Positions 1 to 29,699 of a DNA stretch of 64,000 nucleotides are shown here, piece by piece. Positions within the stretch are counted from its first letter, which is position 1. Each line of letters begins with the position of its first letter. Made by a program: the position numbers and the translations under genes. This DNA is from Paracoccaceae bacterium (GTDB taxonomy: Bacteria; Pseudomonadota; Alphaproteobacteria; Rhodobacterales; Rhodobacteraceae). The stretch is taken from assembly GCA_965221935.1 (NCBI GenBank), contig CBDCSZ010000063.1, positions 57,764-121,763 of the forward strand. The letters run 5' to 3'. Under the pieces are notes generated by a model. That model was not told the DNA's origin. It searched no databases and saw nothing but the letters and a program-made list of their open reading frames with translations.

Positions 1-267
1 ATATGTCATGAGCAGGTACACGGGGTTGCAATCAAATATCTACGCAGCTAACATGGCAAGAGGAGGATATTGCTGACATGCGCCTCGGCAACTCCGCTGA
101 GGCTGGCACCCAATTCGGTTGGACCCGCCTCGAAGAGATGCTCTGCCACCTTTCGTTGGCCTTGATGCCGCATGACGGTCAAATCCAGATAAGAGCGCAT
201 GCTTGAGGCAACAAGTGTGACGCAGAACCGGTGGGCCTCTGCTCACCGACAACGAAAGGAATATTTG

Positions 268-14760: not shown

Positions 14761-15220
14761 TGCTGTTCTCCTTGTGATCGGGAAATCGGTTGTGCGCAGG
14801 CTTCCGCAGCCGTCCGGTTCAGTGCCTGAACTGTTTGGAGAAACAGTCAAGCGGATTCTTCAAATCGCCGCAGCTTTGGATATGGATGTGGAGCCCCGGC
14901 GGCAATGCGGTGTCCACGATAAACACGTAACCGCACTGGCAGCCCCCAGGCGATTCTTCCGGTGAGTTGTTTAAACCGATCTTCAGTGCGCCGTGGAAAG
15001 GCGCGTTTTCCTTGTGGGTGCGAAACCCATTCAGCAATTGTCGCTTCGGTTGTTGCGTGATTGGCATGGTTTCCGAGATGTTCAGGATGGATTTCGGCAG
15101 CCGGTAATTTTTGACTTGCAGAGGGCGTGACCGGGGCGTAAAGGGATCGCATTCAATTGGGAATTTTCCCGTGATCTAATCTGGTTTCGGCAAAGCCCCA
15201 TACTCTTGGAGCAAGTGGAG

Positions 15221-15416
15221 CGGGCTCTGCCTTCCGCGAACAAAGGGGCGGGCTCTGCCTTCCGCGAACAAAGGGGCGGGCTCTGCCTTCCGCGAACAAA
15301 GGGGCGGGCTCTGCCTTCCGCGAACAAAGGGGCGGGCTCTGCCTTCCGCGAACAAAGGGGCGGGCTCTGCCTTCCGCGAACAAAGGGGCGGGCTCTGCCT
15401 TCCGCGAACAAAGGGA
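15221..15416. repeat. perfect tandem repeat, 7 x 28 bp (unit cgggctctgccttccgcgaacaaagggg)
   Basis: Unit starts were counted at 15221, 15249, 15277, 15305, 15333, 15361 and 15389. All copies are identical except the last base of copy 7. The array ends inside the GGGAGGA Shine-Dalgarno of the SBP gene at 15425. Confidence 0.97.
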
Positions 15417-15424
15417 GGAATATC

Positions 15425-17470: not shown

Positions 17471-17488
17471 TCGATTGACGCTATAAGT

Positions 17489-17515
17489 GAGGCGGGCGAG
17501 ATGTTCGCCCGCCTC
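17489..17515 (+). terminator. intercistronic stem-loop between SBP and permease genes (attenuator/RNA-stability element candidate)
   Basis: gaggcgggcga (17489-17499) and tcgcccgcctc (17505-17515) form a perfect 11-bp stem with a 5-nt loop, 19 nt after the SBP stop. There is no U-tract. It is conserved in the duplicated copy at 22449-22475. Confidence 0.5.
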
Positions 17516-17568
17516 TGTCGTGGAAAGGGGGTCGGTCGCCTCAGGGCGATCTGACTTTGGGGAGCCGC

Positions 17569-18570
17569 ATGCAGTTTGCCAGATTCGCTTTCGTGCGCGC
17601 AGTCCTGGCAATCTTCACCCTGTTTATTGTTTCGCTGTTTGTGTTCAGCCTTATGGAGCTCGTTCCCGGCGACTGCGCGGAACGGTACCTTGCGTACAAG
17701 AACACTCAGGGCGCTCCGGTCACGATCGCCGACATTGAATCCGAGCGGATCCGGCTGGGACTGGACAAGCCGTTCATCGTCCGCTGGTCGACCTGGATCG
17801 GCAACGCATTCAGAGGCGAATTCGGCGAGAGCTGTATCCTGCGGGTCAACATCAACAGCCTGCTCGGCGACAAGTTCCTGATTTCGCTCGGGATCTGCAC
17901 GACGTCGCTGGTGCTGTCCTACCTGATCGCGGTGCCGGTGGGCATCCTGTCGGTGACCGCCAACAGCGCGCTGCTCAACAATTCACTGCGCTTCATCAGC
18001 TATCTCGGGCTGGCGCTGCCCAACTTCCTGCTGGCGCTGGTGATCATGCTGTTCTCCACGGTGTATTTCGGCGACAGCATGACCGGCCTCTTCTCAGCTG
18101 AATACCGCGACGCCGAATGGTCATACGGCCGGGTGCTCGATTTCCTGAACCATGTCTGGCTGCCGATCATTATCCTTGGCTGGTCGGCCACCGCCTTCGC
18201 CACCCAGACGGTGCGGGCGCTGATGGCGGACGAGATCAGCAAGCTGTACGTGACCGCGGCGGCTGCCCGCGGCGTGGCCGGCCGCCGCCTGATCCTGCGG
18301 TATCCGGCGCGGCACGCGCTGGGCCCGATCATCAACTCGATCGGATTTGACCTCAACCGGATATTCAGCGACCTGCCGATCGTCGCCTTGATCTTGACGC
18401 TGACGGAATCTGGATTGCTCCTGATCGATGCGCTGGCCAAATCGAACGACCAGCAATTGGCAGGCGCCATCATCTTTCTGATCACCGCCAGCATCATCGG
18501 CCTGAACTTCATCACGGATGTGCTGCTCGCTCTGATCGACCCGCGCATCCGGCGCAGCATCCTGAGGTAA
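17569..18570 (+). CDS. ABC transporter permease (DppB/OppB-like)
   Basis: ATG 17569 follows GGGGAG. The protein is multi-TM and ends with the typical ...DPRIR tail of DppB-type permeases. Confidence 0.9.
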   Translation: MQFARFAFVRAVLAIFTLFIVSLFVFSLMELVPGDCAERYLAYKNTQGAPVTIADIESERIRLGLDKPFIVRWSTWIGNAFRGEFGESCILRVNINSLLGDKFLISLGICTTSLVLSYLIAVPVGILSVTANSALLNNSLRFISYLGLALPNFLLALVIMLFSTVYFGDSMTGLFSAEYRDAEWSYGRVLDFLNHVWLPIIILGWSATAFATQTVRALMADEISKLYVTAAAARGVAGRRLILRYPARHALGPIINSIGFDLNRIFSDLPIVALILTLTESGLLLIDALAKSNDQQLAGAIIFLITASIIGLNFITDVLLALIDPRIRRSILR

Positions 18571-18575
18571 ACGCA

Positions 18576-19739
18576 ATGGCGGACATCGCAGAAGTCAGGC
18601 CGGATGCCGGTCCCGAGGTCGACCAGAAACTCAAGGAAGCGTATTTCACCGCCTCCCAGAGCCAGCTGGTCTGGGCCCGGTTCCGCCGCATCAGGTCGGC
18701 CATGGTTGCGGCGTACATCCTGATCTTCCTGATCACCTGCGGGCTGTTTGCGCCTTTTCTCTCGCCCTACGATCCGACCATCGCCGGCCGGAACAAGGAA
18801 TACCTGAACGGGGCGCCGCAGATCCCCAAATTCTGCGACGAAAACGGCTGTTCATGGCGCCCCTTCATCTACACCTATGAGCGAACGCGGTCGATCAAGA
18901 CCAATTTCCGCTGGGTCACCGAGGTGAACCGGGACAAGCGGCGCTACGTGACGCTGCTGCCGAAGGGATCCGAATACAGGCTGCTCCGGATTCCATTCCT
19001 TTCCTTCGACCGGCATCTGTTCGGCGTGGATCAAGGGAAGATTCACATTTTCGGAACCAATGCCGCCGGCAAGGATATATTTTCCCGGACCCTGCACGCC
19101 ATCAACACCACGCTTGCGGTCGGCACGATCGGAGTGCTGATCTCCTTTGTGCTGGCGCTGATCATTGGCGGCATCTCGGGCTATTTCGGCGGGTTCATCG
19201 ACTCGCTGCTGCAGATGCTGATGGACGCCGTCAAAGTCGTGCCGTCAATTCCCATGATCATGGCCCTGGCGGCGTTCGCCCCGGACGAATGGAGCGCCGA
19301 GACACGGTTCTTTTTCATCGCGGTCATACTTGGCTTCGTCGGCTGGACGACGCTGGCGCGCCGTATCCGGACCCATCTGCTGGCGGAGCGCAACCAGGAA
19401 TATGTGCTGGCGGCGCAGCTGTGCGGAGCATCCTCCGGCCACGTCATCCGCCGTCACCTGCTGCCGAGCTTCACCAGCTACATCATTGTCGACCTGGTGA
19501 TCTCGTTTCCGTACATGGTGCTGGGGGAAACGGCGCTGAGCTTTATCGGCCTGGGCCTCAAGGATCCCGTCAATTCGCTCGGTGTCATGCTGCAGAACGT
19601 CACCAACGCCGACGTGCTGCTGAATTATCAGTGGTATTTCATTCCGGTCCTGTTCTTCATCACCCTGGTGCTGGCCTTCGTTTTTGTCGGCGACGGGCTG
19701 CGCGACGCCGCCGACCCCTACGCGGAAATCCAGAAATAA
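18576..19739 (+). CDS. ABC transporter permease (DppC/OppC-like, long N-terminal extension)
   Basis: 387 aa with a C-terminal ABC transmembrane type-1 region (..LARRIRTHLLAERNQEYVLAAQLCGAS..). It ends with the typical DGLRDAADP tail. The gap from the upstream gene is 5 nt. Confidence 0.9.
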   Translation: MADIAEVRPDAGPEVDQKLKEAYFTASQSQLVWARFRRIRSAMVAAYILIFLITCGLFAPFLSPYDPTIAGRNKEYLNGAPQIPKFCDENGCSWRPFIYTYERTRSIKTNFRWVTEVNRDKRRYVTLLPKGSEYRLLRIPFLSFDRHLFGVDQGKIHIFGTNAAGKDIFSRTLHAINTTLAVGTIGVLISFVLALIIGGISGYFGGFIDSLLQMLMDAVKVVPSIPMIMALAAFAPDEWSAETRFFFIAVILGFVGWTTLARRIRTHLLAERNQEYVLAAQLCGASSGHVIRRHLLPSFTSYIIVDLVISFPYMVLGETALSFIGLGLKDPVNSLGVMLQNVTNADVLLNYQWYFIPVLFFITLVLAFVFVGDGLRDAADPYAEIQK

Positions 19740-20734
19740 TGCCGCTGCTTGACGTCGAAAACCTGACCCTGCAGTTCGACACCGACGAGGGAAGGGTCAC
19801 GGCCGTCGAGGAGTTCTCGCTGAGCCTGGAGGCCGGCGAAATCGTCGGCCTTGTGGGCGAGAGCGGCTCCGGCAAGTCCGTCACCGCCAAGTCGCTGATG
19901 AAGCTCAACGCCGGCAATGCGGTCTACAGCGGAGAAACCGGGATCACGCTGCATCTTGAGCAAGGTCCGGTCGACATCATGAGCCTCAGGTCGGCCAGGG
20001 AACTGCAGCTCGTGCGCGGCGGCGCCATCTCGATGATTTTCCAGGAACCGATGGCGAGCTTTGCGCCGGCGCTGACGGTCGGCGACCAGATGGTCGAGCA
20101 GCTGCAGATCCACACCGACATGTCGCCCGCAGAGTGCCGCACCCTGTCTATCGACATGCTCGAGAGGGTCGGAATCGCCGATGCCGCCAAGCGTTTCAGG
20201 CAGTTCGCCTTCGAGCTGTCCGGCGGCATGCGGCAGCGGGCAATGATCGCCATGGCGCTGTCGACGCGGCCGAAGCTGTTGATCGCCGATGAGCCGACAA
20301 CCGCCCTCGACGTCACCATTCAGGCCCAGGTGATCGACCTGATGAAGGACCTGGTTCAGGAATTCGGAATGGCGATCATCTTCATCACCCACGATCTCGG
20401 AGTGGTGGCGCAGACCGCCGATACCGTCGCCGTGATGTATCTCGGCCGGCTGGTCGAGAAAGGGCCGGTGCAGGAAGTCATCAAGAATCCTTCCCATCCC
20501 TACACCAGGGGACTGCTCGAAGCCCTGCCGCGGCTGTCCGATCTTGACGCGCCGCTGACGCCGGTGCCGGGCGACATACCCTCGCCGCTGGAGCGGCCGG
20601 CCGGCTGCGTGTTCCAGACCCGCTGCCCGTCACTGGTCGGAAACGTGTGCCGGTCGGTGATACCGGACTTCCGGACCATCGGGCCGCGGCACCGCTCGGC
20701 GTGCCATCTGGTTGCGGCGGAGCGGGCGGCATGA
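19739..20734 (+). CDS. ABC transporter ATP-binding protein (DppD/OppD-like)
   Basis: ATG 19739 overlaps the TAA of the previous gene. Walker A is GESGSGKS and the signature is LSGGMRQR. The C-terminal Cys-rich oligopeptide-transporter tail reads CVFQTRCP...C...C. Confidence 0.9.
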   Translation: MPLLDVENLTLQFDTDEGRVTAVEEFSLSLEAGEIVGLVGESGSGKSVTAKSLMKLNAGNAVYSGETGITLHLEQGPVDIMSLRSARELQLVRGGAISMIFQEPMASFAPALTVGDQMVEQLQIHTDMSPAECRTLSIDMLERVGIADAAKRFRQFAFELSGGMRQRAMIAMALSTRPKLLIADEPTTALDVTIQAQVIDLMKDLVQEFGMAIIFITHDLGVVAQTADTVAVMYLGRLVEKGPVQEVIKNPSHPYTRGLLEALPRLSDLDAPLTPVPGDIPSPLERPAGCVFQTRCPSLVGNVCRSVIPDFRTIGPRHRSACHLVAAERAA

Positions 20735-21732
20735 GCCGCGACGTCCTGATTTCCGCCCGAAACCTTTCCGTCCGGTTTCCGCTTCGCGGCGGTCTTTTTG
20801 AGGAGAAGACCTATGTGCGCGCGGTGGAAAATGTCAGCATCGACATCGAAAAAGGGAAGTTCTTCGGCCTCGTCGGTGAATCCGGCTCCGGCAAGACGAC
20901 GCTCGGCCGGGCCCTGCTGCTGGCCAATCCGATCACGGAGGGCGAAGTCACCTATTCCGACGGCCAGGTGAGCTATGACCTGCGGAATATCACCGCACAG
21001 CAGCGCCGCGATTATTATTCACGGGCCCAGCTGATCTTCCAGGATCCATATGCGGCGCTCAGCCCGCGCATGACCGTCCGGGACATCATCGCCGAGCCGC
21101 TCGAAGTGATGAGGCTGACCCGGTCGCGGGCCGAAACCGACGAAAGAGTGCGCGAGTTCGCCGCCAAGTGCCGGTTGAACCTGGAGCACCTGCGGCGGTT
21201 TCCGCATGCGTTTTCGGGCGGCCAGCGCCAGCGGATATCGATAGCCCGGGCATTGGTGTCGCGGCCGCGGTTCGTGGTCGCCGACGAAAGCGTCGCGGCG
21301 CTCGATGTCTCGATCCAGGCCGATGTGCTCAATCTCCTGAAATCCATTCAGCGCGAGCTCGGCCTCACCTTCCTGTTCATCAGCCACGATCTGAGCGTGG
21401 TGGCGCATATCTGTGACCATGTCGCGCTGATGTATTTCGGGCGGCTGGTTGAGACCGCCCCGACGCGGCGCCTTTTTGCGAACCCGAAACACCCCTATAC
21501 CAAGGCCCTGCTGTCGGCCATTCCCTCGCTCGACCCGGACGTGCGCGGCACAGGGCAGAAGCTCGAGGGCGAGATTCCGTCACAGACGAATCCGCCGCCC
21601 GGCTGCAAGTTCCAGACCCGCTGCCCGTTTGCGGTCGATCACTGCCGGGAAGAGGAACCGGCGCTGGAACCCGTCGAGGGAGAACACAATGTCGCCTGCC
21701 ACAGGTGGCGGGAACTCGAGGCCGCCGCCTGA
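20731..21732 (+). CDS. ABC transporter ATP-binding protein (DppF/OppF-like)
   Basis: ATG 20731 forms an ATGA overlap with the upstream stop. Walker A is GESGSGKTT and the signature is FSGGQRQR. The C-terminal tail reads CKFQTRCPFAVDHC. Confidence 0.9.
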   Translation: MSRDVLISARNLSVRFPLRGGLFEEKTYVRAVENVSIDIEKGKFFGLVGESGSGKTTLGRALLLANPITEGEVTYSDGQVSYDLRNITAQQRRDYYSRAQLIFQDPYAALSPRMTVRDIIAEPLEVMRLTRSRAETDERVREFAAKCRLNLEHLRRFPHAFSGGQRQRISIARALVSRPRFVVADESVAALDVSIQADVLNLLKSIQRELGLTFLFISHDLSVVAHICDHVALMYFGRLVETAPTRRLFANPKHPYTKALLSAIPSLDPDVRGTGQKLEGEIPSQTNPPPGCKFQTRCPFAVDHCREEEPALEPVEGEHNVACHRWRELEAAA

Positions 21733-21884
21733 CGGGAATGCGCCTTCCGAACCGGCCAGGCGCAGTTCCAGACAGAATTCAGACCGGACCCGGCGCCGGG
21801 GCGATACCGGGTTCGCATCATCCGGATTGGCGCAGGCCGGCGGCGGAAAGCGTCCGCCTCCGAATTTGAAAGCGCCAGGCACTG

Positions 21885-22430
21885 CGATGACAAGTGGCTG
21901 ACCTACTTCACACAGCACGACCCGGACATGGCGAACTCGCTGCTTGACGAGACCGGCATGGTCGACACCGGCGGCGACGGTTTCCGGGAATTGCCGAACG
22001 GTGAGAAAATCAGGCCGAGTATGCGGTTTGCGAATCCGGGCCTCCCAGGTGTGGTCGTCGAACTTGCCGCCAGCGGCTGGGCCGAAGTCGGGGTGCAGAC
22101 GACCGTCAAGGAAATCACGCCGGACGAGTGCCGGTCGGCGCCGCTGGTGATCACGCTGGATGCCAACGAGCGCTGGGTGCCGCGCCGTCCTCTTCCTATT
22201 TCGGCCACCGGCAAGGCATGCTTTGGGCCGAGTGGGTGGAAAGTGGCGGCGCCGCCGGCGCTGAGCCGCCCGATTATGTCAAGCAGCTGATCGATGACAT
22301 CGGCGCCTTCCAGTCCGCGCTGATCTGCCATCGAAACGCGCTCAAGAATTTCGTGGAATTCCAGACTCAATCCTACTTCTACCACCGGACTTGCCCATAT
22401 CGCGCGACGCAGCGGCACTTTGACGAGTGA
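21885..22430 (+). pseudogene. 3' fragment of family-5 SBP gene (duplicate, deleted and frameshifted)
   Basis: Translations in two frames (21928..22290 and 22128..22430) match the last ~225 residues of the SBP at 15425..17470 (DKWLTYFTQ...GDGFRELPNGEKI..., ...HRNALKNFVEFQTQ...). There are internal deletions and a frame change. Confidence 0.85.
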
Positions 22431-22448
22431 TCGGTCAACGCTATAAGT

Positions 22449-22475
22449 GAGGCGGGCGAGATGTTCGCCCGCCTC
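22449..22475 (+). terminator. duplicate of the intercistronic stem-loop
   Basis: Same gaggcgggcga/tcgcccgcctc hairpin as 17489-17515, at offset 4960. Confidence 0.45.
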
Positions 22476-22528
22476 TGTTGTGGAAAGGGGGTCGGTCGCC
22501 TCAGGGCGATCTGACTTTGGGGAGCCGC

Positions 22529-23530
22529 ATGCAGTTTGCCAGATTCGTTCTCGTGCGCGCAGTCCTGGCAATCTTCACCCTGTTTATTGTTTCGCTGTTT
22601 GTGTTCAGCCTTATGGAGCTCGTTCCCGGCGACTGCGCGGAACGGTACCTCGCGTGGAAGACCACCCTAGGCGCTACGATCACGTTCGCCGACATTGAAT
22701 CCGAGCGGATCCGGATGGGACTGGACAAGCCGTTCATCGTCCGCTGGTCGACCTGGATCGGCAACGCATTCAGAGGCGAATTCGGCGAGAGCTGCATCCT
22801 GCGGAAGAACATCAACAGCCTGCTCGGCGACAAGTTCCTGATTTCGCTCGGGATCTGCACGGCGTCGCTGGTGCTGTCCTACCTGATCGCGGTGCCGGTG
22901 GGCATCCTGTCGGTGACCGCCAACAGCGCGCTGCTCAACAATTCACTGCGCTTCATCAGCTATCTCGGGCTGGCGCTGCCCAACTTCCTGCTGGCGCTGG
23001 TGATCATGCTGTTCTCCACGGTGTATTTCGGCGACAGCATGACCGGCCTCTTCTCGGCTGAATACCGCGACGCCGAATGGTCAACCGGCCGGGTGCTCGA
23101 TTTCCTGAACCATGTCTGGCTGCCGATCATTATCCTTGGCTGGTCGGCCACCGCCTTCGCCATCCAGACGGTGCGGGCGCTGATGGCGGATGAGATCAGC
23201 AAGCTGTACGTGACCGCGGCGGCTGCCCGCGGCGTCGCCGGCCGCCGCCTGATCCTGCGGTATCCGGCGCGGCACGCGCTGGGCCCGATCATCAACTCGA
23301 TCGGATTTGACCTCAACCGGATATTCAGCGAGCTGCCGATCGTCGCCTTGATCTTGACGCTGACAGAATCTGGATTGCTCCTGATCGATGCGCTGGCCAG
23401 ATCGAACGACCAGCATTTGGCAGGCGCCATCATCTTTCTGCTCACCGCCAGCATCATCGGCCTGAACTTCATCACGGATGTGCTGCTCGCTCTGATCGAC
23501 CCGCGCATCCGGCGCAGCATCCTGAGGTAA
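22529..23530 (+). CDS. ABC transporter permease (DppB-like), diverged duplicate, frame intact
   Basis: Same length and frame as 17569..18570. I counted about 17 amino-acid differences by eye, clustered near the N-terminus (LAYKNTQGAPVTIADIES versus LAWKTTLGATITFADIES). It is probably not part of a complete transporter. Confidence 0.7.
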   Translation: MQFARFVLVRAVLAIFTLFIVSLFVFSLMELVPGDCAERYLAWKTTLGATITFADIESERIRMGLDKPFIVRWSTWIGNAFRGEFGESCILRKNINSLLGDKFLISLGICTASLVLSYLIAVPVGILSVTANSALLNNSLRFISYLGLALPNFLLALVIMLFSTVYFGDSMTGLFSAEYRDAEWSTGRVLDFLNHVWLPIIILGWSATAFAIQTVRALMADEISKLYVTAAAARGVAGRRLILRYPARHALGPIINSIGFDLNRIFSELPIVALILTLTESGLLLIDALARSNDQHLAGAIIFLLTASIIGLNFITDVLLALIDPRIRRSILR

Positions 23531-23535
23531 ACGCA

Positions 23536-23607
23536 ATGGCGGACATCGCAGAAGTCAGGCCGGATGCCGCCGGCAAGGATATATTTTCCCGGACCCTGCA
23601 CGCCATC
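23536..23607 (+). pseudogene. DppC-like permease gene, duplicate copy, 5' piece (internal 456-nt deletion, then IS insertion)
   Basis: The first 33 nt equal 18576-18608. The sequence then jumps to the equivalent of 19065 onward, and is interrupted at 23607/23608 by the IS. Confidence 0.85.
23600..23607. repeat. target-site duplication, left copy (acgccatc)
   Basis: An identical 8-mer lies at 26909-26916, immediately outside the other IS end. The paralogous uninterrupted site at 19096-19103 has a single copy. Confidence 0.9.
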
Positions 23608-23632
23608 GTAAGCGGGTAAACGGCGACGTCCG
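23608..23632. repeat. IS66 terminal inverted repeat (left)
   Basis: gtaagcgggtaaacggcgacgtccg. The reverse complement of 26884-26908 is gtaagcgggtaaatggcgacgtccg, giving one mismatch. Confidence 0.9.
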
Positions 23633-23792
23633 TTGATTTAGCGTGGTTTCTGGTGTCGTTCTGGCGGCTGCGGCCGATCCTGCGGCTTGTGCATTCTCCG
23701 ATTTGTTGCTGCTGCGCCGTTTTTTTCGTTTGACACGATAGGCCGCCGGGGCTATTCCCGGCGAATCAAGACGAACCGTCGGGAGATCGGCC

Positions 23793-24458
23793 ATGGCATC
23801 ATGGTATGGTTCCAAAGGGACGACAGGGCTCTGCCAGCCGCTCATCGCGATGTGTCCGCCGCATTCCGTATTTTTGGAAACACATCTTGGGGGCGGTGCG
23901 ATCATGAAGCGCAAGCCTCCGGCGCTCAGGAACATCGGCATCGATCTCAACCGCCGGGCCATCGACAGCTTCAGCTGCGACTATCCGGTCGAGCTTCACC
24001 ACGGCTGCTGCCACGCGTTCCTGTCCGATTTCGACTTCGACGGCCGCGAACTGGTCTACAGCGACCCGCCCTACGTGCAGTCGGCGCGCAAGTCGCAGCG
24101 CCGCTATCGCTTCGACTATACGGACGCCGACCATGCCGCGCTTCTCGGCATTCTGAAGTCGCTGCCCTGTTCGGTGATGGTCTCCGGCTATCCGTCCCGG
24201 CTCTACGACGAACACCTCTGCGAGTGGCGTTCGCTGGAGATCCAGGTCAACAACCAGTCCTGCATCGTCACCGAGAAGCTGTGGTTCAACTTCGCGCCCG
24301 ACCGGGTGCACTGGGCGGCCTTCGCCGGACGGAACTTCACCCACCGCCAGGTCGTCAAGCGCAAGGCGGCGAGCTGGGGGCGGCGCTACGCGGCGATGCC
24401 GCCGGGCGAGCGGCTGGCGGCGCTGGCGGCGATCATGGCGGTGGAGGCGGAGGAATGA
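23793..24458 (+). CDS. DNA N6-adenine methyltransferase, D12 class (Dam-like), IS cargo
   Basis: 221 aa. The N-terminus has Y-G-S-K and the AdoMet-binding-like ETHLGGGA. The catalytic DPPY is present (VYSDPPYV). The start is preceded by GGGAGA. The stop overlaps the tnpC start (ATGA at 24455-24458). Confidence 0.8.
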   Translation: MASWYGSKGTTGLCQPLIAMCPPHSVFLETHLGGGAIMKRKPPALRNIGIDLNRRAIDSFSCDYPVELHHGCCHAFLSDFDFDGRELVYSDPPYVQSARKSQRRYRFDYTDADHAALLGILKSLPCSVMVSGYPSRLYDEHLCEWRSLEIQVNNQSCIVTEKLWFNFAPDRVHWAAFAGRNFTHRQVVKRKAASWGRRYAAMPPGERLAALAAIMAVEAEE

Positions 24459-26194
24459 GCGGGATCGACCCGTCCGACCCGGATGCGGTCCGCCGTCGGC
24501 TTGACGGGCTCCGTTCGGAATTCGCGGGGCTGAGCGGCGGCGGCCTGCTGCGGGGCGTCGCCTCCCTGTTCAGGGAGTTGTTCGGGCTTGCCGGGACGCA
24601 GTCGACGATCATTGCCGCGCTGCAGGACAAGCTCACCGAGGAAGTGGCGAAGAACAGTGCGCTTTGCGACCAGCTCGCCCGCTATGAGCGCCAGCAGCAC
24701 GGCCGGAGCTCGGAGAAGCGCCGCAATGCCGGCACCGCCTCCGAAGGTGGTGCTTCCGATGGTGCCGCAACGCCGGATGCCGGGGAGGATGAACCCGAAG
24801 CCGGAAAGACAACCGGAAAGAAAGCCGGAAAGAAGCCCCAGGGCGGCGTCAAGGGGCGCAAGAAGGATCGCGGCGATGCCGTCAACGGCGCCGGGCTGCG
24901 CTTCGGCCCCGAGGCAACGGTGATCGACATCGATGTGATGCCGCCGGAGATCGACGGGCTGGCGGCGGGCGAGTTCGAGCTCATCTCAGAGCGGGTGTGC
25001 TGCAAGCTGGCATCGGTGCCGATCCGCCACGTGGTCCTGCGTTACCATTACAAGAAGGCGAAGATCATGTCCTCCGGCGCCCTGGTCTGCGCCCCGGCCG
25101 TCGAGAGCGTGTTCAAGAATTCCTGCGCGGACGTGACCTTTATCGCCGGAATGCTGGTCGACAAGTTCGCCTGGCATCTCCCCCTCCACCGCCAGCGCCA
25201 GATGCTGGCCGGGAGCGGGATCACCGTCAACCGCAGGTCCTTGAGTGGCTGGGCCAACCGGGCGATCTCGCTGCTGGAGCCGGTGTTCGAGGCGCAGCGC
25301 CGCTCGGTTCTGGAAAGCTCCGTCATCGTCATGGACGAGACGCCGGTGCGGGTCGGGCGCGACCCCGCCAAGCCGGGCAAGATGAAACAATGCTGCTACT
25401 GGCCGGCGCTCGGCGACCGGGACGAGGTTGTGTTCCACTTCGCGCCCTCCCGCGCCCACCACCATGTCGAGCGGTTCCTCGGCGATTTCGAGGGCACGCT
25501 GGTCAGCGACGGCTACGGCGCCTATGCGGCGTACGCCGAGACGCGGGGGGCGGCGGTGAGACAGCAAAACTGCTGGGCGCATTCCAGACGCAATTTCGAG
25601 GAGCAGCTGGACAACTGCCCGGTGTTGGCCGGGGAGGCGCTGGACCTGATCGGGGGCATGTGCGGGATCGAGAAGGAATTCCGACTCCGGCCGCCGCCGG
25701 AACTCCTTGTGGCGCGGCGCATACACACCCGCCCGCTGGTCGACGCCTTCTGGCTATGGTGCGCGCAGACGCTCGGGGATCCGGCGCTGACGCCGAAGCA
25801 CCCGATCCGCCGGGCGGTCAACTGTGCCGTCGAACGCCGGCAGTCCCTCGAGGTGTTCCTCGACGACCCGCTGGTGCCGATCGATACCAATGGTGTCGAG
25901 CGCGCACTGCGCCGCGTCAAGCCGGGGCAGAAGAACTGGCTGTTTTCCTGGACGGAATCGGGCGCGTACAACGTGGGGATCGTCAACAGCCTCACCGCAA
26001 CCTGCCAGCTGCACGAGATCAGCCCCCTTGTGTATCTGACCGACGTCCTCCAGCGCATCGACACCCACCCGGCCGACCGGATCCACGAACTGACGCCGCG
26101 CCTGTGGAAGGAGCTCTTCGCCGACGCCCCGATGACCGGCATCGACATGACCGTCGTCCGGGCTCACCCGGACGCCACTTGGGGACCGTCGTAA
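24455..26194 (+). CDS. tnpC: IS66-family DDE transposase (TnpC)
   Basis: ATG 24455 follows GGAGG. Family strings seen: LPLHRQ, VMDETPV, SDGYGAY, CWAHSRRNF, TNGVERALR, and the C-terminal ELTPRLW. Only the part of the 835-aa ORF 23687..26194 downstream of 24455 is family-like. Confidence 0.85.
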   Translation: MSGIDPSDPDAVRRRLDGLRSEFAGLSGGGLLRGVASLFRELFGLAGTQSTIIAALQDKLTEEVAKNSALCDQLARYERQQHGRSSEKRRNAGTASEGGASDGAATPDAGEDEPEAGKTTGKKAGKKPQGGVKGRKKDRGDAVNGAGLRFGPEATVIDIDVMPPEIDGLAAGEFELISERVCCKLASVPIRHVVLRYHYKKAKIMSSGALVCAPAVESVFKNSCADVTFIAGMLVDKFAWHLPLHRQRQMLAGSGITVNRRSLSGWANRAISLLEPVFEAQRRSVLESSVIVMDETPVRVGRDPAKPGKMKQCCYWPALGDRDEVVFHFAPSRAHHHVERFLGDFEGTLVSDGYGAYAAYAETRGAAVRQQNCWAHSRRNFEEQLDNCPVLAGEALDLIGGMCGIEKEFRLRPPPELLVARRIHTRPLVDAFWLWCAQTLGDPALTPKHPIRRAVNCAVERRQSLEVFLDDPLVPIDTNGVERALRRVKPGQKNWLFSWTESGAYNVGIVNSLTATCQLHEISPLVYLTDVLQRIDTHPADRIHELTPRLWKELFADAPMTGIDMTVVRAHPDATWGPS

Positions 26195-26529
26195 CGCCTG
26201 CGGCGGCGCCGGACGGTGACGTCGATGCCGTCGATCAGCGCCATCAGCTCGGTCGATGACAATGCGAGCGCCGCATGGCCAGACGCCGGCGGCGGGGCGA
26301 ACAGGCCCTGCTCCAGGCGCTTGGACCAGATGAAGAAGCCGCCCCGCTCGAAGCCGAGGATCTTCACGATCGTCCGTCGCCGATTGACGAACACGCACCA
26401 GCGCCCGTCAGCCGGGTTGCACCCGAGATGGCCCGACACCAGGGCGCACAGCCCGTCGAAACTGCGCCGCATGTCGGCCGGATCACTCGACAGCCAGATG
26501 CCGCCCCGCGGCCAGCCGCCAAGCATCAC
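26164..26529 (-). CDS. tnpB: IS66 Orf2 (TnpB) family protein
   Basis: 121 aa. DMRRSFDGLCALV...VFVNRRRTIVKILGFERGGFFIWSKRLEQGLF... matches the IS66 Orf2 pattern I know (DMRKGFDGL..VF.N.R....KIL......SKRLE.G.F). There is an ATGA-type overlap with tnpA. Confidence 0.85.
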   Translation of the reverse strand: MMLGGWPRGGIWLSSDPADMRRSFDGLCALVSGHLGCNPADGRWCVFVNRRRTIVKILGFERGGFFIWSKRLEQGLFAPPPASGHAALALSSTELMALIDGIDVTVRRRRRRYDGPQVASG

Positions 26530-26810
26530 GAACGCCGAACCCGCAGGACGACCCCGTCGCCCAGCTCGAGCTCGACATCCCAGCCGGACACCGCAGGCGG
26601 CGCCAGCTCGACGAAGGAACCCTTCCCGCCCCCGAGGCAGAGACGGCGCCGCCAGTTCCCGAAGGTCTTCAACGACAGCTCACGGGACTCGCAAAACTCC
26701 CGCCGCGACAGCCCCGAACGCTCGAAATCCGCCATGATGCTGTTCCACTCCGCCTCACTGCGCACCACCGGCGCAGGACGGGAACCAGCCGAACCATTCA
26801 AACCTGACAT
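26526..26810 (-). CDS. tnpA: IS66 Orf1 (TnpA) helix-turn-helix protein
   Basis: 94 aa. Contains EWNSIMADFERSGLSRREFCESRELSLKTFGNWRRRL, an HTH-like segment. The start lies 98 nt from the IS end and GGAGG lies upstream. Confidence 0.75.
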   Translation of the reverse strand: MSGLNGSAGSRPAPVVRSEAEWNSIMADFERSGLSRREFCESRELSLKTFGNWRRRLCLGGGKGSFVELAPPAVSGWDVELELGDGVVLRVRRS

Positions 26811-26883
26811 GACAATATCCTCCGATCATTGATCAATGACCGGAATTATCCCCATGCACCCCCCGCACGGGCAACCGAATTAT

Positions 26884-26908
26884 CGGACGTCGCCATTTAC
26901 CCGCTTAC
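26884..26908. repeat. IS66 terminal inverted repeat (right)
   Basis: cggacgtcgccatttacccgcttac, the reverse-complement partner of 23608-23632. Confidence 0.9.
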
Positions 26909-26916
26909 ACGCCATC
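26909..26916. repeat. target-site duplication, right copy (acgccatc)
   Basis: See 23600-23607. Confidence 0.9.
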
Positions 26917-27552
26917 AACACCACGCTTGCGGTCGGCACGATCGGAGTGCTGATCTCCTTTGTGCTGGCGCTGATCATTGGCGGCATCTCGGGCTATTTC
27001 GGCGGGTTCATCGACTCGCTGCTGCAGATGCTGATGGACGCCGTCAAAGTCGTGCCGTCAATTCCCATGATCATGGCCCTGGCGGCGTTCGCCCCGGACG
27101 AATGGAGCGCCGAGACACGGTTCTTTTTCATCGCGGTCATACTTGGCTTCGTCGGCTGGACGACGCTGGCGCGCCGTATCCGGACCCATCTGCTGGCGGA
27201 GCGCAACCAGGAATATGTGCTGGCGGCGCAGCTGTGCGGAGCATCCTCCGGCCACGTCATCCGCCGTCACCTGCTGCCGAGCTTCACCAGCTACATCATT
27301 GTCGACCTGGTGATCTCGTTTCCGTACATGGTGCTGGGGGAAACGGCGCTGAGCTTTATCGGCCTGGGCCTCAAGGATCCCGTCAATTCGCTCGGTGTCA
27401 TGCTGCAGAACGTCACCAACGCCGACGTGCTGCTGAATTATCAGTGGTATTTCATTCCGGTCCTGTTCTTCATCACTCTGGTGCTGGCCTTCGTTTTTGT
27501 CGGCGACGGGCTGCGCGACGCCGCCGACCCCTACGCGGAAATCCAGAAATAA
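26909..27552 (+). pseudogene. DppC-like permease gene, duplicate copy, 3' piece
   Basis: Colinear with 19096..19739. I found one silent difference. ORF 26836..27552 starts inside the IS end and reads into this piece. Confidence 0.85.
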
Positions 27553-28547
27553 TGCCGCTGCTTGACGTCGAAAACCTGACCCTGCAGTTCGACACCGACG
27601 AGGGAAGGGTCACGGCCGTCGAGGAGTTCTCGCTGAGCCTGGAGGCCGGCGAAATCGTCGGCCTTGTGGGCGAGAGCGGCTCCGGCAAGTCCGTCACCGC
27701 CAAGTCGCTGATGAAGCTCAACGCCGGCAATGCGGTCTACAGCGGAGAAACCGGGATCACGCTGCATCTTGAGCAAGGTCCGGTCGACATCATGAGCCTC
27801 AGGTCGGCCAGGGAACTGCAGCTCGTGCGCGGCGGCGCCATCTCGATGATTTTCCAGGAACCGATGGCGAGCTTTGCGCCGGCGCTGACGGTCGGCGACC
27901 AGATGGTCGAGCAGCTGCAGATCCACACCGACATGTCGCCCGCAGAGTGCCGCACCCTGTCTATCGACATGCTCGAGAGGGTCGGAATCGCCGATGCCGC
28001 CAAGCGTTTCAGGCAGTTCGCCTTCGAGCTGTCCGGCGGCATGCGGCAGCGGGCAATGATCGCCATGGCGCTGTCGACGCGGCCGAAGCTGTTGATCGCC
28101 GATGAGCCGACAACCGCCCTCGACGTCACCATTCAGGCCCAGGTGATCGACCTGATGAAGGACCTGGTTCAGGAATTCGGAATGGCGATCATCTTCATCA
28201 CCCACGATCTCGGAGTGGTGGCGCAGACCGCCGATACCGTCGCCGTGATGTATCTCGGCCGGCTGGTCGAGAAAGGGCCGGTGCAGGAAGTCATCAAGAA
28301 TCCTTCCCATCCCTACACCAGGGGACTGCTCGAAGCCCTGCCGCGGCTGTCCGATCTTGACGCGCCGCTGACGCCGGTGCCGGGCGACATACCCTCGCCG
28401 CTGGAGCGGCCGGCCGGCTGCGTGTTCCAGACCCGCTGCCCGTCACTGGTCGGAAACGTGTGCCGGTCGGTGATACCGGACTTCCGGACCATCGGGCCGC
28501 GGCACCGCTCGGCGTGCCATCTGGTTGCGGCGGAGCGGGCGGCATGA
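27552..28547 (+). CDS. ABC transporter ATP-binding protein (DppD-like), near-identical duplicate
   Basis: The protein string is identical by eye to 19739..20734. Confidence 0.8.
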   Translation: MPLLDVENLTLQFDTDEGRVTAVEEFSLSLEAGEIVGLVGESGSGKSVTAKSLMKLNAGNAVYSGETGITLHLEQGPVDIMSLRSARELQLVRGGAISMIFQEPMASFAPALTVGDQMVEQLQIHTDMSPAECRTLSIDMLERVGIADAAKRFRQFAFELSGGMRQRAMIAMALSTRPKLLIADEPTTALDVTIQAQVIDLMKDLVQEFGMAIIFITHDLGVVAQTADTVAVMYLGRLVEKGPVQEVIKNPSHPYTRGLLEALPRLSDLDAPLTPVPGDIPSPLERPAGCVFQTRCPSLVGNVCRSVIPDFRTIGPRHRSACHLVAAERAA

Positions 28548-29545
28548 GCCGCGACGTCCTGATTTCCGCCCGAAACCTTTCCGTCCGGTTTCCGCTTCGC
28601 GGCGGTCTTTTTGAGGAGAAGACCTATGTGCGCGCGGTGGAAAATGTCAGCATCGACATCGAAAAAGGGACGTTCTTCGGCCTCGTCGGTGAATCCGGCT
28701 CCGGCAAGACGACGCTCGGCCGGGCCCTGCTGCTGGCCAATCCGATCACGGAGGGCGAAGTCACCTATTCCGACGGCCAGGTGAGCTATGACCTGCGGAA
28801 TATCACCGCACAGCAGCGCCGCGATTATTATTCACGGGCCCAGCTGATCTTCCAGGATCCATATGCGGCGCTCAGCCCGCGCATGACCGTCCGGGACATC
28901 ATCGCCGAGCCGCTCGAAGTGATGAGGCTGACCCGGTCGCGGGCCGAAACCGACGAAAGAGTGCGCGAGTTCGCCGCCAAGTGCCGGTTGAACCTGGAGC
29001 ACCTGCGGCGGTTTCCGCATGCGTTTTCGGGCGGCCAGCGCCAGCGGATATCGATAGCCCGGGCATTGGTGTCGCGGCCGCGGTTCGTGGTCGCCGACGA
29101 AAGCGTCGCGGCGCTCGATGTCTCGATCCAGGCCGATGTGCTCAATCTCCTGAAATCCATTCAGCGCGAGCTCGGCCTCACCTTCCTGTTCATCAGCCAC
29201 GATCTGAGCGTGGTGGCGCATATCTGTGACCATGTCGCGCTGATGTATTTCGGGCGGCTGGTTGAGACCGCCCCGACGCGGCGCCTTTTTGCGAACCCGA
29301 AACACCCCTATACCAAGGCCCTGCTGTCGGCCATTCCCTCGCTCGACCCGGACGTGCGCGGCACAGGGCAGAAGCTCGAGGGCGAGATTCCGTCACAGAC
29401 GAATCCGCCGCCCGGCTGCAAGTTCCAGACCCGCTGCCCGTTTGCGGTCGATCACTGCCGGGAAGAGGAACCGGCGCTGGAACCCGTCGAGGGAGAACAC
29501 AATGTCGCCTGCCACAGGTGGCGGGAACTCGAGGCCGCCGCCTGA
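28544..29545 (+). CDS. ABC transporter ATP-binding protein (DppF-like), near-identical duplicate
   Basis: The protein is identical to 20731..21732 except for one residue (EKGKFFGL versus EKGTFFGL). Confidence 0.8.
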   Translation: MSRDVLISARNLSVRFPLRGGLFEEKTYVRAVENVSIDIEKGTFFGLVGESGSGKTTLGRALLLANPITEGEVTYSDGQVSYDLRNITAQQRRDYYSRAQLIFQDPYAALSPRMTVRDIIAEPLEVMRLTRSRAETDERVREFAAKCRLNLEHLRRFPHAFSGGQRQRISIARALVSRPRFVVADESVAALDVSIQADVLNLLKSIQRELGLTFLFISHDLSVVAHICDHVALMYFGRLVETAPTRRLFANPKHPYTKALLSAIPSLDPDVRGTGQKLEGEIPSQTNPPPGCKFQTRCPFAVDHCREEEPALEPVEGEHNVACHRWRELEAAA

Positions 29546-29699
29546 CGGGAATGCGCCTTCCGAACCGGCCAGGCGCAGTTCCAGACAGAATTCAGACCGG
29601 ACCCGGCGCCGGGGCGATACCGGGTTCGCATCATCCGGATTGGCGCAGGCCGGCGGCGGAAAGCGTCCGCCTCCGAATTTGAAAGCGCCAGGCACTTGG

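What the first reader, a model, noticed from the sequence alone, without database searches (positions are those of the whole stretch)
24455..26810. Non-canonical IS66 layout: tnpA-tnpB converge on tnpC and the 3' ends overlap by 31 nt
As I know them, canonical IS66 elements carry tnpA, tnpB and tnpC co-directionally. In this element tnpA (26810->26526) and tnpB (26529->26164) read inward from the right end. tnpC (24455->26194) reads inward from the left end. The two reading frames overlap tail-to-tail at 26164-26194. Both products keep family-typical C-termini (ELTPRLW... for TnpC and LIDGIDVTVRRRR... for TnpB). A random internal inversion would be unlikely to leave both genes intact with overlapping stops. 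This may therefore be a stable variant architecture with separate promoters at each end.
Basis: partly seen in the sequence, partly recalled or inferred. Interest (0 to 1): 0.65.

Follow-up and report, generated by a model that had tools for sequence, protein, structure and literature searches.

The report
Convergent IS66 variant carrying a methylase
This is an intact, mobile IS66-family insertion sequence from a widespread lineage in which a small DNA methylase gene plus the transposase gene read inward from one end and the two accessory genes read inward from the other; that gene order is fixed in the lineage and I found no description of it, so it is neither a one-off inversion nor an assembly error.

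Summary
tnpC (24455-26194, +) and tnpB-tnpA (26529-26164 and 26810-26526, -) converge, and their 3' ends overlap by 31 nt.

They belong to one complete 3301-bp element (23608-26908). It has IS66-type inverted repeats (GTAAGCG...) and an 8-bp target duplication (ACGCCATC). The empty site survives in a paralogous opp copy at 19096-19103.

The layout recurs. About 70 related loci in several marine and sponge MAGs show the same order: MTase>, tnpC>, <tnpB, <tnpA. Of these, 24 are full copies at different sites with perfect 8-bp duplications. The order holds in lineages down to 51% TnpC identity. Relatives at 47% identity or less are canonical and lack the methylase.

Independent assemblies span the junction.

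A further result: the Dam-like methylase (65-83% identical) sits directly upstream of the transposase gene in two deeply different IS66 subgroups, the three-gene type here and ISBst12-like single-gene elements. In both it follows the same conserved promoter block, TTGACA-N17-TAnnnT with a TAG-N10-CTA dyad.

No description was found in the searchable literature, and ISfinder could not be consulted. Verdict: a new variant of a known kind, of moderate interest.

The parts
23600..23607 (.). Left copy of the 8-bp target-site duplication, ACGCCATC
   Evidence: The same 8-mer occurs once at the empty paralogous site 19096-19103.
23608..23638 (+). Left terminal inverted repeat (IRL), GTAAGCGGGTAAACGGCGACGTCCGTTGATT
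   Evidence: (I4): 31 nt, 90% complementary to 26878-26908; two matches in the window against 0 expected.
23730..23758 (+). Inferred left promoter P_L. The -35 is TTGACA (23730-23735), the spacer is 17 nt and the -10 is TATTCC (23753-23758). It contains the dyad ATAG (23738-23741) ... CTAT (23752-23755).
   Evidence: Conserved across all clades and across both transposase types. This is an inference from conservation; the transcription start was not mapped.
23793..24458 (+). Orphan Dam-like (D12-class) N6-adenine DNA methyltransferase, 221 aa, with an SDPPY motif
   Evidence: TIGR00571 partial hit. (PF02086 in 11 of 12 family members, best E 4.6e-07). (fold hits to E. coli Dam, DpnM and T4 Dam). 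(3124 homologues).
24455..26194 (+). tnpC, the IS66-family DDE transposase, 579 aa. Its start overlaps the MTase stop (ATGA).
26155..26174 (.). GC-rich hairpin CGTCCGGG-CTCA-CCCGGACG. The loop holds the tnpB stop codon (26164-26166).
   Evidence: A hairpin in the equivalent position (GGCGGC-TTCAG-GCCGCC around the tnpB stop) occurs in the L082 clade.
26164..26194 (.). 31-nt tail-to-tail overlap of the tnpC and tnpB coding ends
26126..26241 (.). 30-nt inverted repeat (arms 26126-26155 and 26212-26241, 77% complementary). It encodes the GIDMTV tail of TnpC and the GIDVTV tail of TnpB and folds into a long stem.
   Evidence: I7. (z -3.2 on + and -3.65 on -). It is specific to the window's clade.
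26164..26529 (-). tnpB, the IS66 accessory protein, 121 aa
26526..26810 (-). tnpA, the IS66 accessory protein, 94 aa. A GGAGG ribosome-binding site lies at 26819-26823 (- strand).
26845..26874 (-). Candidate right promoter P_R, TTGCCC-N18-GATAAT, reading towards tnpA
   Evidence: the one consensus hit in the region (0.4 expected by chance). The TTG of the -35 is conserved across clades; the -10 is not. Weak.
26878..26908 (-). Right terminal inverted repeat (IRR)
   Evidence: (I4)
26909..26916 (.). Right copy of the 8-bp target-site duplication, ACGCCATC
19096..19103 (.). Empty target site in the intact paralogous oppC copy
   Evidence: (D2 and D18). Contigs with the joint 23598>26908 appear in X1 and X7.

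Best explanation
The region is one complete and probably active insertion sequence of the IS66 family (23608-26908, 3301 bp), inserted into an oppC-like permease gene. It belongs to a lineage whose fixed design is two inward-facing, convergent operons.

From the left end, a conserved promoter (TTGACA-N17-TATTCC, with a TAG-N10-CTA dyad between the two hexamers) drives a small Dam-like orphan adenine methyltransferase gene. The transposase gene tnpC is translationally coupled to it through an ATGA overlap. From the right end, a second promoter drives tnpA-tnpB, which are also coupled. The two units meet tail to tail. In this clade their last codons overlap by 31 nt around a GC-rich hairpin that holds the tnpB stop codon.

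Shown: the anatomy, mobility as a single unit, recurrence of the layout, and conservation of the left promoter block.

Inferred: (i) The layout arose when a promoter-plus-methylase cassette took over the position directly upstream of tnpC in a canonical tnpA-tnpB-tnpC ancestor related to the L166/L167 lineage, uncoupling tnpC from tnpB. The same cassette sits upstream of the transposase gene in ISBst12-like single-gene elements. (ii) The methylase, or another binder of the dyad, regulates the shared promoter and so regulates transposase supply. (iii) Convergent transcription through the overlap lets the two operons dampen each other.
For: Element ends:
- 31-nt inverted repeats and an 8-bp direct repeat are present, and an empty site survives in the window.

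Protein identities.

Recurrence:
- All roughly 70 genome-collection loci with enough sequence show MT+ TnpC+ TnpB- TnpA-.
- 24 further copies have perfect and mutually different 8-bp duplications.
- The same order holds in the clades at 51-58% TnpC identity, with their own inverted repeats and duplications.
- Relatives at 47% identity or less are co-directional, lack the MTase, and share GTAAGCGG..AAA ends and 8-bp duplications.
- TnpB and TnpA are closest to the same canonical lineage as TnpC (L166: C 47%, B 63%, A 43%). This favours rearrangement in place over capture of a foreign tnpAB pair.

MTase cassette:
- The MTase, at 65-74% identity, lies 4-30 nt upstream of an ISBst12-like transposase in 65 of 80 metagenome loci and in L076-L081. 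Those elements are 2.33 kb, have GTAACTACTC ends and make 8-bp duplications. Their transposase is only about 23% identical to the window's TnpC.
- A perfect TTGACA lies 55-68 nt before the MTase start in 91 of 98 distinct upstream sequences (39 nt in two). In the 72 unique promoter blocks, TAG at +9..11 and CTA at +22..24 are essentially invariant, the 10 nt between them are free, and G at +8 always pairs with C at +25 (9 of 9).

Junction and expression:
- The junction is spanned by contigs from three independent studies.
- A sponge metatranscriptome has contigs 90-95% identical to all four genes.
Against: - No stranded RNA data, mapped transcription starts or transposition assay are available. 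The metatranscriptome contigs are unstranded, come from related rather than identical copies, and could include DNA.
- The consensus promoter scan did not call P_L, because its -10 lacks the final T the scan requires, and it called P_R only at chance level.
- No intrinsic terminator lies at the junction.
- The 3' overlap and the 30-nt inverted repeat are not conserved across the whole lineage, so they cannot be essential to the design.
- The window's own MTase scores below the Pfam threshold (14.7 bits against a cut-off of 22). The AlphaFold model is mediocre (pLDDT 62.5) and aligns to Dam over only about 95 residues.
- The methylase target sequence is unknown, and no motif shared between the ends of the two element types was found.
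- The G-C covariation in the dyad may reflect a single lineage.
Confidence: 0.8

Rival explanations
1. A one-off internal inversion in this genome, or a misassembly across 26150-26200.
For: Canonical IS66 elements are co-directional, including the nearest plasmid-borne relatives.
Against: The same order occurs in about 70 loci from several MAGs and metagenomes, and 24 further copies have independent target duplications. Contigs from three separate studies cross the junction. Both ORFs are intact and the overlap length is conserved.
Confidence: 0.01
2. Two different elements lie side by side or nested: an MTase-tnpC element next to the tnpA-tnpB stub of another IS66 copy. On this view it is not a single transposable unit.
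For: MTase-tnpC two-gene elements do exist. The tnpC/tnpB junction attracts other insertions (L175).
Against: There is only one pair of inverted repeats and one 8-bp duplication, and both enclose all four genes. No internal GTAAGCG end exists. The 3.3-kb unit is found whole at 24 other sites. The two-gene elements use a transposase only about 23% identical and different ends (GTAACTACTC).
Confidence: 0.02
3. The MTase-tnpC segment, or the 56-nt piece between the 30-nt inverted repeats, is a switchable invertible segment, and the window shows one of its states.
For: A 30-nt inverted repeat flanks the junction (I7). In two other clades a ~300-nt spacer at the same junction is found in opposite orientations.
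Against: No copy within the clade shows the other orientation or swapped tails. The element encodes no recombinase. No inversion joints appear in the laid contigs. The inverted repeat is absent from other clades that have the same layout.
Confidence: 0.03
4. The architecture is real, but the methylase is only cargo, for example protection of the host or incoming DNA against restriction as for orphan methylases of conjugative plasmids. It would then play no part in controlling transposition, and the convergent order would be a neutral by-product of how the cassette was picked up.
For: The nearest non-IS homologues (49% identity or less) are orphan adenine methylases, mostly on plasmids typed as conjugative (132 of 176 records). 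One of them (Xanthomonas, L172) has the same ACATAG-N10-CTATGCTG block upstream, so the promoter and dyad belong to the methylase gene rather than to the IS. MTase and TnpC identities are not congruent, as expected for a module that moves around.
Against: In two very different transposase lineages the cassette always occupies the same place, directly upstream of and coupled to the transposase gene, so the transposase is expressed from the methylase promoter. Among the related loci examined here, nothing showed the MTase in any other position relative to the transposase gene. The MTase is under strong purifying selection inside elements whose transposases diverge quickly.
Confidence: 0.35

Closest known systems
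Canonical IS66 / IS679-type elements (IS66 family, three-gene group)
   Same: DDE transposase TnpC (PF03050 and PF13817), accessory TnpB (PF05717) and TnpA, terminal inverted repeats starting GTAAGCG, 8-bp target duplication, and coupled tnpA-tnpB. The nearest canonical relatives have 40-47% TnpC identity.
   Different: tnpC is not downstream of tnpB. It is on the opposite strand, coupled to a methylase gene with its own promoter. The element is about 0.8 kb longer (3.3 kb against 2.4-2.5 kb). The PF13007 leucine-zipper match seen in the canonical relatives is weak or absent here.
ISBst12 group of the IS66 family (tnpC only)
   Same: Many metagenomic elements of this type carry the same methylase cassette (65-74% identical, same promoter block) directly upstream of their transposase gene, and they also make 8-bp duplications.
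   Different: They have no tnpA or tnpB. Their ends are GTAACTACTC, their length is 2.33 kb, and their transposase is only about 23% identical to the window's TnpC. Assigning those elements to ISBst12 rests on the single-ORF layout and on inverted-repeat similarity to ISDge4, as quoted in PMC12898284. It was not checked in ISfinder.
Dam-controlled transposition of IS10, IS50 and IS903 (host Dam methylation of the transposase promoter and ends)
   Same: This is a possible functional analogy: an adenine methylase of the Dam (D12) class linked to control of transposase expression. The background comes from established knowledge, summarised in PMC9296519.
   Different: Here the methylase is encoded by the element itself and co-transcribed with the transposase. 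No GATC-type site has been identified, and the regulation is purely inferred.
ISs with passenger genes (tIS) and orphan methylases of conjugative plasmids
   Same: The element has an extra gene that is not a transposase inside the IS ends. The homologues are orphan adenine methylases, mostly on plasmids typed as conjugative.
   Different: The passenger is fused into the transposase operon and is conserved across two IS66 subgroups, unlike sporadic cargo.

Membership tests
IS66 family | DDE transposase of the IS66 type (TnpC) | tested here: met
   PF03050 at E 5.6e-75, PF13817 at 1.9e-11, and NF033517 at 313 bits against a cut-off of 180
IS66 family | Terminal inverted repeats of about 20-30 bp beginning GTAAGCG | tested here: met
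   31-nt inverted repeats, with 25 of 25 terminal bases matching apart from 1 mismatch
IS66 family | 8-bp target-site duplication | tested here: met
   ACGCCATC on both sides, with the empty site at 19096-19103
IS66 family, three-gene (IS66/IS679) group | Accessory genes tnpA and tnpB present | tested here: met
   NF047593 at 54.8 bits (cut-off 28). NF033819 at 86.7 bits (cut-off 50) and PF05717.
IS66 family, three-gene (IS66/IS679) group | Co-directional order tnpA-tnpB-tnpC, with tnpC coupled to tnpB | tested here: not met
   tnpC is on the opposite strand and coupled to the MTase gene. This holds for the whole clade.
ISBst12 group | Single transposase ORF with no tnpA or tnpB | tested here: not met
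   tnpA and tnpB are present. TnpC is about 23% identical to the MTase-linked single-gene transposases.
D12-class (Dam-like) N6-adenine DNA methyltransferases | Catalytic DPPY motif and a glycine-rich SAM-binding motif, in the order I then IV | tested here: met
   LGGGA at residues 32-36 and SDPPY at residues 90-94, invariant in the alignment of 12 homologues
D12-class (Dam-like) N6-adenine DNA methyltransferases | Profile or fold match to the family | tested here: inconclusive
   The window protein scores 14.7 bits on PF02086, below the cut-off of 22, although 11 of 12 homologues match (best E 4.6e-07). TIGR00571 gives a partial hit at 23 bits. The top Foldseek hits are Dam, DpnM and T4 Dam, but only over about 95 residues of a model with pLDDT 62.
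D12-class (Dam-like) N6-adenine DNA methyltransferases | m6A methylation of a defined DNA motif | not testable with these tools
   Needs a methylome of an expressing strain

The most novel reading that the evidence does not exclude
The promoter-plus-methylase cassette may be a self-contained epigenetic governor of IS66-type transposition. On this reading the element's own Dam-like enzyme methylates, or binds, the TAG-N10-CTA dyad inside the promoter it shares with the transposase gene. Transposase would then be made only in a particular methylation state, for example just after replication or on entry into a naive host. This governor module would have been exchanged between two deeply diverged IS66 subgroups, and in the three-gene subgroup it would have forced tnpA-tnpB into a convergent second operon.
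Probability: 0.2. Interest if true: 0.7.

Novelty: new variant of a known kind. Interest (0 to 1): 0.5.

Why it matters
IS66 is a large family whose transposition mechanism, and the roles of TnpA and TnpB, remain poorly understood. This lineage shows three things.

- tnpC can be uncoupled from tnpB and placed under a different promoter while the element stays highly mobile, with dozens of copies per genome in some marine and sponge-associated bacteria. That limits models requiring tnpB-to-tnpC translational coupling.
- A small orphan adenine methylase is fused into the transposase operon in two separate IS66 subgroups. This points to a link between DNA methylation and transposition that could be tested directly.
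- For annotation, these elements would otherwise be read as fragments or as inverted partial copies. The methylases would be counted as host orphan methylases even though they are IS-borne and multi-copy.

Tried and rejected
- A megablast of the whole element against 72,556 plasmids gave no match. The protein search there found only relatives at 41% identity or less, all canonical, so plasmid records could not test recurrence.
- Eight literature searches on IS66 combined with methyltransferase, passenger gene, orientation or ISBst12 found no description of this layout. The Route 66 review of the family is not held. Two candidate papers, on the Paracoccus mobilome and on pink-berry methylomes, do not mention it.
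- The consensus promoter and terminator scan was uninformative at the junction and at the left end.
- A search for a shared candidate methylation motif failed. GACGTC occurs in the three-gene type's inverted repeats but not in the ISBst12-like ends.
- The long stem formed by the 30-nt inverted repeat is not conserved in the L082 clade (z -0.4 and -1.2), so I do not treat it as a family feature.
- Sequence search of the MTase profile against the PDB gave only a marginal DpnM hit (E 0.1).
- The spacer ORF of the L169 clade is not the orf4 of canonical relatives.
- Source names for the proteins are generic, with no ISfinder-derived name.
Full report
**1. The observation**

The ORF list and the sequence show four genes.
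- A 221-aa ORF lies at 23793-24458 (+).
- A 579-aa ORF lies at 24455-26194 (+). Its ATG overlaps the stop of the first ORF (ATGA).
- A 121-aa ORF lies at 26529-26164 (-).
- A 94-aa ORF lies at 26810-26526 (-), overlapping the start of the 121-aa ORF.

Profile searches identify three of them.
- The 579-aa protein is an IS66-family DDE transposase (PF03050 E 5.6e-75; PF13817; NF033517 at 313 bits).
- The 121-aa protein is IS66 TnpB (PF05717 E 1e-26; NF033819).
- The 94-aa protein is an IS66 TnpA (NF047593, 54.8 bits against a cut-off of 28).

The tnpC stop ends at 26194. The tnpB stop (TCA on the + strand) begins at 26164.

**2. The element and its borders**

A 31-nt inverted repeat pair, GTAAGCGGGTAAA(C/T)GGCGACGTCCG..., sits at 23608-23638 and 26878-26908 (I4). 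The 25-nt core occurs exactly twice in the window, against 0 expected. It is flanked on both sides by ACGCCATC (23600-23607 and 26909-26916).

The window holds a tandem duplicate of the opp operon. Region 19095-21883 matches 26908-29696 at 99.9%, and 17354-18609 matches 22315-23569 at 96%. In the uninterrupted copy the sequence runs straight through a single ACGCCATC at 19096-19103 (D2 and D18).

The unit is therefore a 3301-bp IS with IS66-type ends and the family's 8-bp target duplication, inserted in an oppC-like permease gene. Contigs carrying the empty form also appear in two public runs (joint 23598>26908).

**3. Not an artefact**

The sequence is held by runs from several studies, most of them labelled sponge metagenomes. 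Contigs from three different studies cross the tnpC/tnpB junction without a break: X1 covers 24343-26326, X3 covers 24288-26214 and X7 covers 26082-26631.

**4. Recurrence**

A scan of one genome per species (GTDB) with TnpC returned 71 loci. They come from several Paracoccaceae MAGs and from Amylibacter, Silicimonas, a gammaproteobacterial MAG and an alphaproteobacterial MAG.

A tblastn of the four window proteins against these loci shows the same order wherever enough sequence is present: MT+, TnpC+, TnpB-, TnpA-.

Locating the GTAAGCG ends gave 24 further full copies, each with a perfect 8-bp duplication and each at a different target sequence. Their lengths are 3149-3311 bp. This is direct evidence that the four-gene unit transposes as one piece and has done so many times.

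The order is older than this clade.
- Elements with 55-58% TnpC identity (L082-L085) have the same layout, their own inverted repeats and their own duplications. Loci with 54-62% TnpC identity (L046, L072, L075) show the same gene order; their ends were not located.
- A clade at 51-52% identity (L169-L171; 3.63 kb; duplications GGCGCTGC and GCCGGGGA) also has it.

Below that level the picture changes abruptly. TnpC homologues at 47% identity or less lie in canonical co-directional tnpA-tnpB-tnpC elements of 2.42-2.47 kb without a methylase. These are L166-L168 and the plasmid copies L001-L004. The homologue list shows the same break: proteins at 51% identity or more lack the PF13007 annotation carried by those at 47% or less.

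TnpB and TnpA of the window are also closest to the same canonical lineage (L166: TnpC 47%, TnpB 63%, TnpA 43%). I take this to mean that the convergent order arose by rearrangement of a canonical ancestor, not by capture of an unrelated tnpAB pair. That is an inference.

**5. The tail overlap**

The overlap is exactly 31 nt in all eight copies examined of the 84-100% clade and 25 nt in the L082 clade.

In both clades the tnpB stop codon sits in the loop of a short GC-rich hairpin.
- Window: CGTCCGGG-CTCA-CCCGGACG, 26155-26174.
- L082: GGCGGC-TTCAG-GCCGCC.

In the window's clade a 30-nt inverted repeat (26126-26155 and 26212-26241) makes the last residues of TnpC (GIDMTV) mirror those of TnpB (GIDVTV). 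It gives a long stem (z -3.2 and -3.65). That repeat is missing from the L082 clade.

The L169 and L087 clades have a 420-470-nt spacer instead of an overlap. The overlap is therefore a conserved compaction within sub-clades, not a requirement of the design. No intrinsic terminator was detected at the junction.

**6. The methylase cassette**

The 221-aa protein has LGGGA and SDPPY motifs that are invariant among its homologues. It also has:
- a partial TIGR00571 (dam) match;
- PF02086 matches in 11 of 12 family members, although the window protein itself is below threshold;
- E. coli Dam, DpnM and T4 Dam as the best fold matches, over about 95 residues of a mediocre model (pLDDT 62.5).

I call it a compact Dam-like (D12-class) adenine methyltransferase. 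Its activity and target are untested.

It has 3124 homologues at E of 0.001 or less, and the top 120 clusters are all at least 70% identical. On plasmids the nearest relatives (49% or less) are orphan adenine methylases, most of them on plasmids typed as conjugative (132 of 176 records).

Of the 80 loci kept:
- 65 have an IS66-family transposase of a different kind directly downstream and co-directional;
- 6 have the window's kind, with convergent tnpB (and in L087 tnpA) where the contig reaches that far (L087, L089);
- 9 show none, and several of these are short contigs;
- none has tnpA or tnpB upstream of the methylase.

The other kind is a 2.33-kb two-gene IS with ends GTAACTACTC and 8-bp duplications (L076-L079). 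Its transposase is only about 23% identical to the window's TnpC. Its ends resemble those quoted for the ISBst12-group element ISDge4. The same methylase is therefore fused upstream of the transposase gene in two deeply separated IS66 subgroups.

**7. Promoters**

An alignment of the left ends of all three-gene clades shows a block that stays constant while its surroundings diverge: TTGACA, 17 nt, then TATTCC or TATTGA, ending about 35 nt before the methylase ATG. The same block precedes the methylase in the two-gene elements.

Over all loci, 91 of 98 distinct upstream sequences have a perfect TTGACA 55-68 nt before the start codon (39 nt in two).

The 72 unique blocks have these properties.
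- TAG at +9..+11 and CTA at +22..+24 are invariant or nearly so (69-72 of 72).
- The 10 nt between them are unconstrained.
- The flanking pair co-varies. G at +8 is always matched by C at +25 (9 of 9), and A at +8 is mostly matched by T (48 of 62).

I read this as a sigma-70-type promoter with a dyad operator between its hexamers. In the window the -35 is at 23730-23735, the -10 at 23753-23758, and the dyad at 23738-23741 and 23752-23755.

One plasmid homologue (Xanthomonas, L172) has ACATAG-N10-CTATGCTG in the same place, so the block belongs to the methylase gene.

The two-gene elements have no TnpA or TnpB, and their transposase is unrelated at the sequence level. The only element-encoded protein common to all carriers of the dyad is the methylase. 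This makes it the best candidate for the factor that acts on the dyad. That is an inference and was not tested.

At the right end there is a consensus-like TTGCCC-N18-GATAAT (26874-26845, minus strand) and a GGAGG 8 nt before the tnpA ATG. Only the TTG and the ribosome-binding site are conserved across clades. P_R is therefore plausible but weakly supported.

**8. Expression**

No stranded data exist for this organism. One sponge metatranscriptome contains contigs 90-95% identical to parts of all four genes. This is compatible with expression of related copies, but the data are unstranded and DNA carry-over cannot be excluded.

**9. How it most likely works**

Shown:
- It is a single mobile unit with IS66 ends.
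- It has two gene pairs on opposite strands, each internally coupled.
- A conserved promoter block lies upstream of the methylase.
- The layout is fixed in the lineage.

Inferred:
- P_L transcribes MTase-tnpC, and P_R transcribes tnpA-tnpB.
- The transposase supply is therefore set by the methylase promoter rather than by coupling to tnpB as in canonical IS66.
- The dyad, and possibly methylation, regulates P_L.
- Without a terminator, the two transcripts run into each other's 3' ends, or further, giving antisense pairing or polymerase collision that could keep expression low.

The alternative is that the methylase is only useful cargo and the order is a neutral consequence of how it was acquired. 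This remains quite possible; I give it about 0.35.

**10. Comparison and novelty**

By proteins, ends and target duplication the element is a member of the IS66 family. It fails the canonical gene order of the three-gene group, and it is not an ISBst12-type element. The closest functional parallel is Dam control of IS10, IS50 and IS903, with the difference that here the methylase is on the element.

I found no description of the convergent order, or of the methylase-transposase fusion, in the searchable literature. Public protein names are generic. The key family review and ISfinder could not be consulted.

I therefore rate it a new variant of a known kind, with the caveat that a curated database entry may exist. 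Interest is moderate. It would not overturn anything, but it offers a concrete way to study the roles of TnpA and TnpB and a link between methylation and transposition in a poorly understood family.

Noticed in passing
window 15189-15443: A tandem array of about 8 copies of a 28-nt unit (GGGGCGGGCTCTGCCTTCCGCGAACAAA) lies just upstream of, or within the start of, the oppA-like ORF (D1).
   Followed up: no
window 16786-21883 versus 21885-29696: The opp-type ABC transporter operon is tandemly duplicated. The oppC-D-F part is 99.9% identical and the oppB part 96%. The second copy has only a remnant of oppA and lacks about 450 nt of oppC (the equivalent of 18610-19059) right next to the IS, so it is a decaying copy.
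   Followed up: partly
L048-L066, e.g. L051 5936-7845: Many copies of the IS in one Paracoccaceae MAG carry a ~1.9-kb group II intron (RF02005, 159 bits, with a 494-aa ORF). It sits in tnpC at codon 311/312 on the coding strand, so an intron is spreading with, or homing into, the transposase gene.
   Followed up: partly
L028, L029 (also L063): A 3149-bp deletion derivative lacking TnpB residues 1-52 has perfect 8-bp duplications at two different sites. It was presumably mobilised in trans by intact copies.
   Followed up: no
L027 and L030: Two copies in one MAG carry swapped halves of two target duplications (CTTTCTTC and GCAGCAGC). This is the signature of an inversion by recombination between two IS copies.
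   Followed up: no
L175 5862-7703: At the same oppC insertion in another sample, a different IS (a 613-aa DDE_Tnp_1 transposase) sits exactly between tnpC and tnpB. TnpC stays identical and TnpB is 124 aa. The junction seems to attract insertions.
   Followed up: no
L169 5674-6097 versus L087 8330-8799: About 300 nt of the spacer that replaces the tail overlap in two clades is 84% identical between them but lies in opposite orientation. In L169 a 12-nt inverted repeat (ATGACAAGGAGA / TCTCCTTGACAT) flanks the spacer, which carries a 67-aa basic ORF there.
   Followed up: partly
L016, L022, L023, L034, L048, L049, L059, L073: The methylase gene of several copies is split at residue 25 by a ~3.9-kb insert. 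In several loci a more distant IS66-type transposase (28% identical to the window's TnpC) lies next to the detached N-terminal fragment, suggesting a further IS66-type element as the insert. Other copies are split at residues 134-137 by ~3.2 kb, a size consistent with another copy of the same IS.
   Followed up: no
L005-L171 (identity table): Methylase and transposase identities are not congruent. Examples are L169 (MTase 83%, TnpC 52%) and L024 (MTase 78%, TnpC 84%). This suggests exchange of the cassette among elements.
   Followed up: partly
L046, L072, L075: In one MAG the tnpC reading frame lacks the usual stop and runs 180-950 nt antisense through tnpB. These may be degenerate copies or assembly frameshifts.
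   Followed up: no
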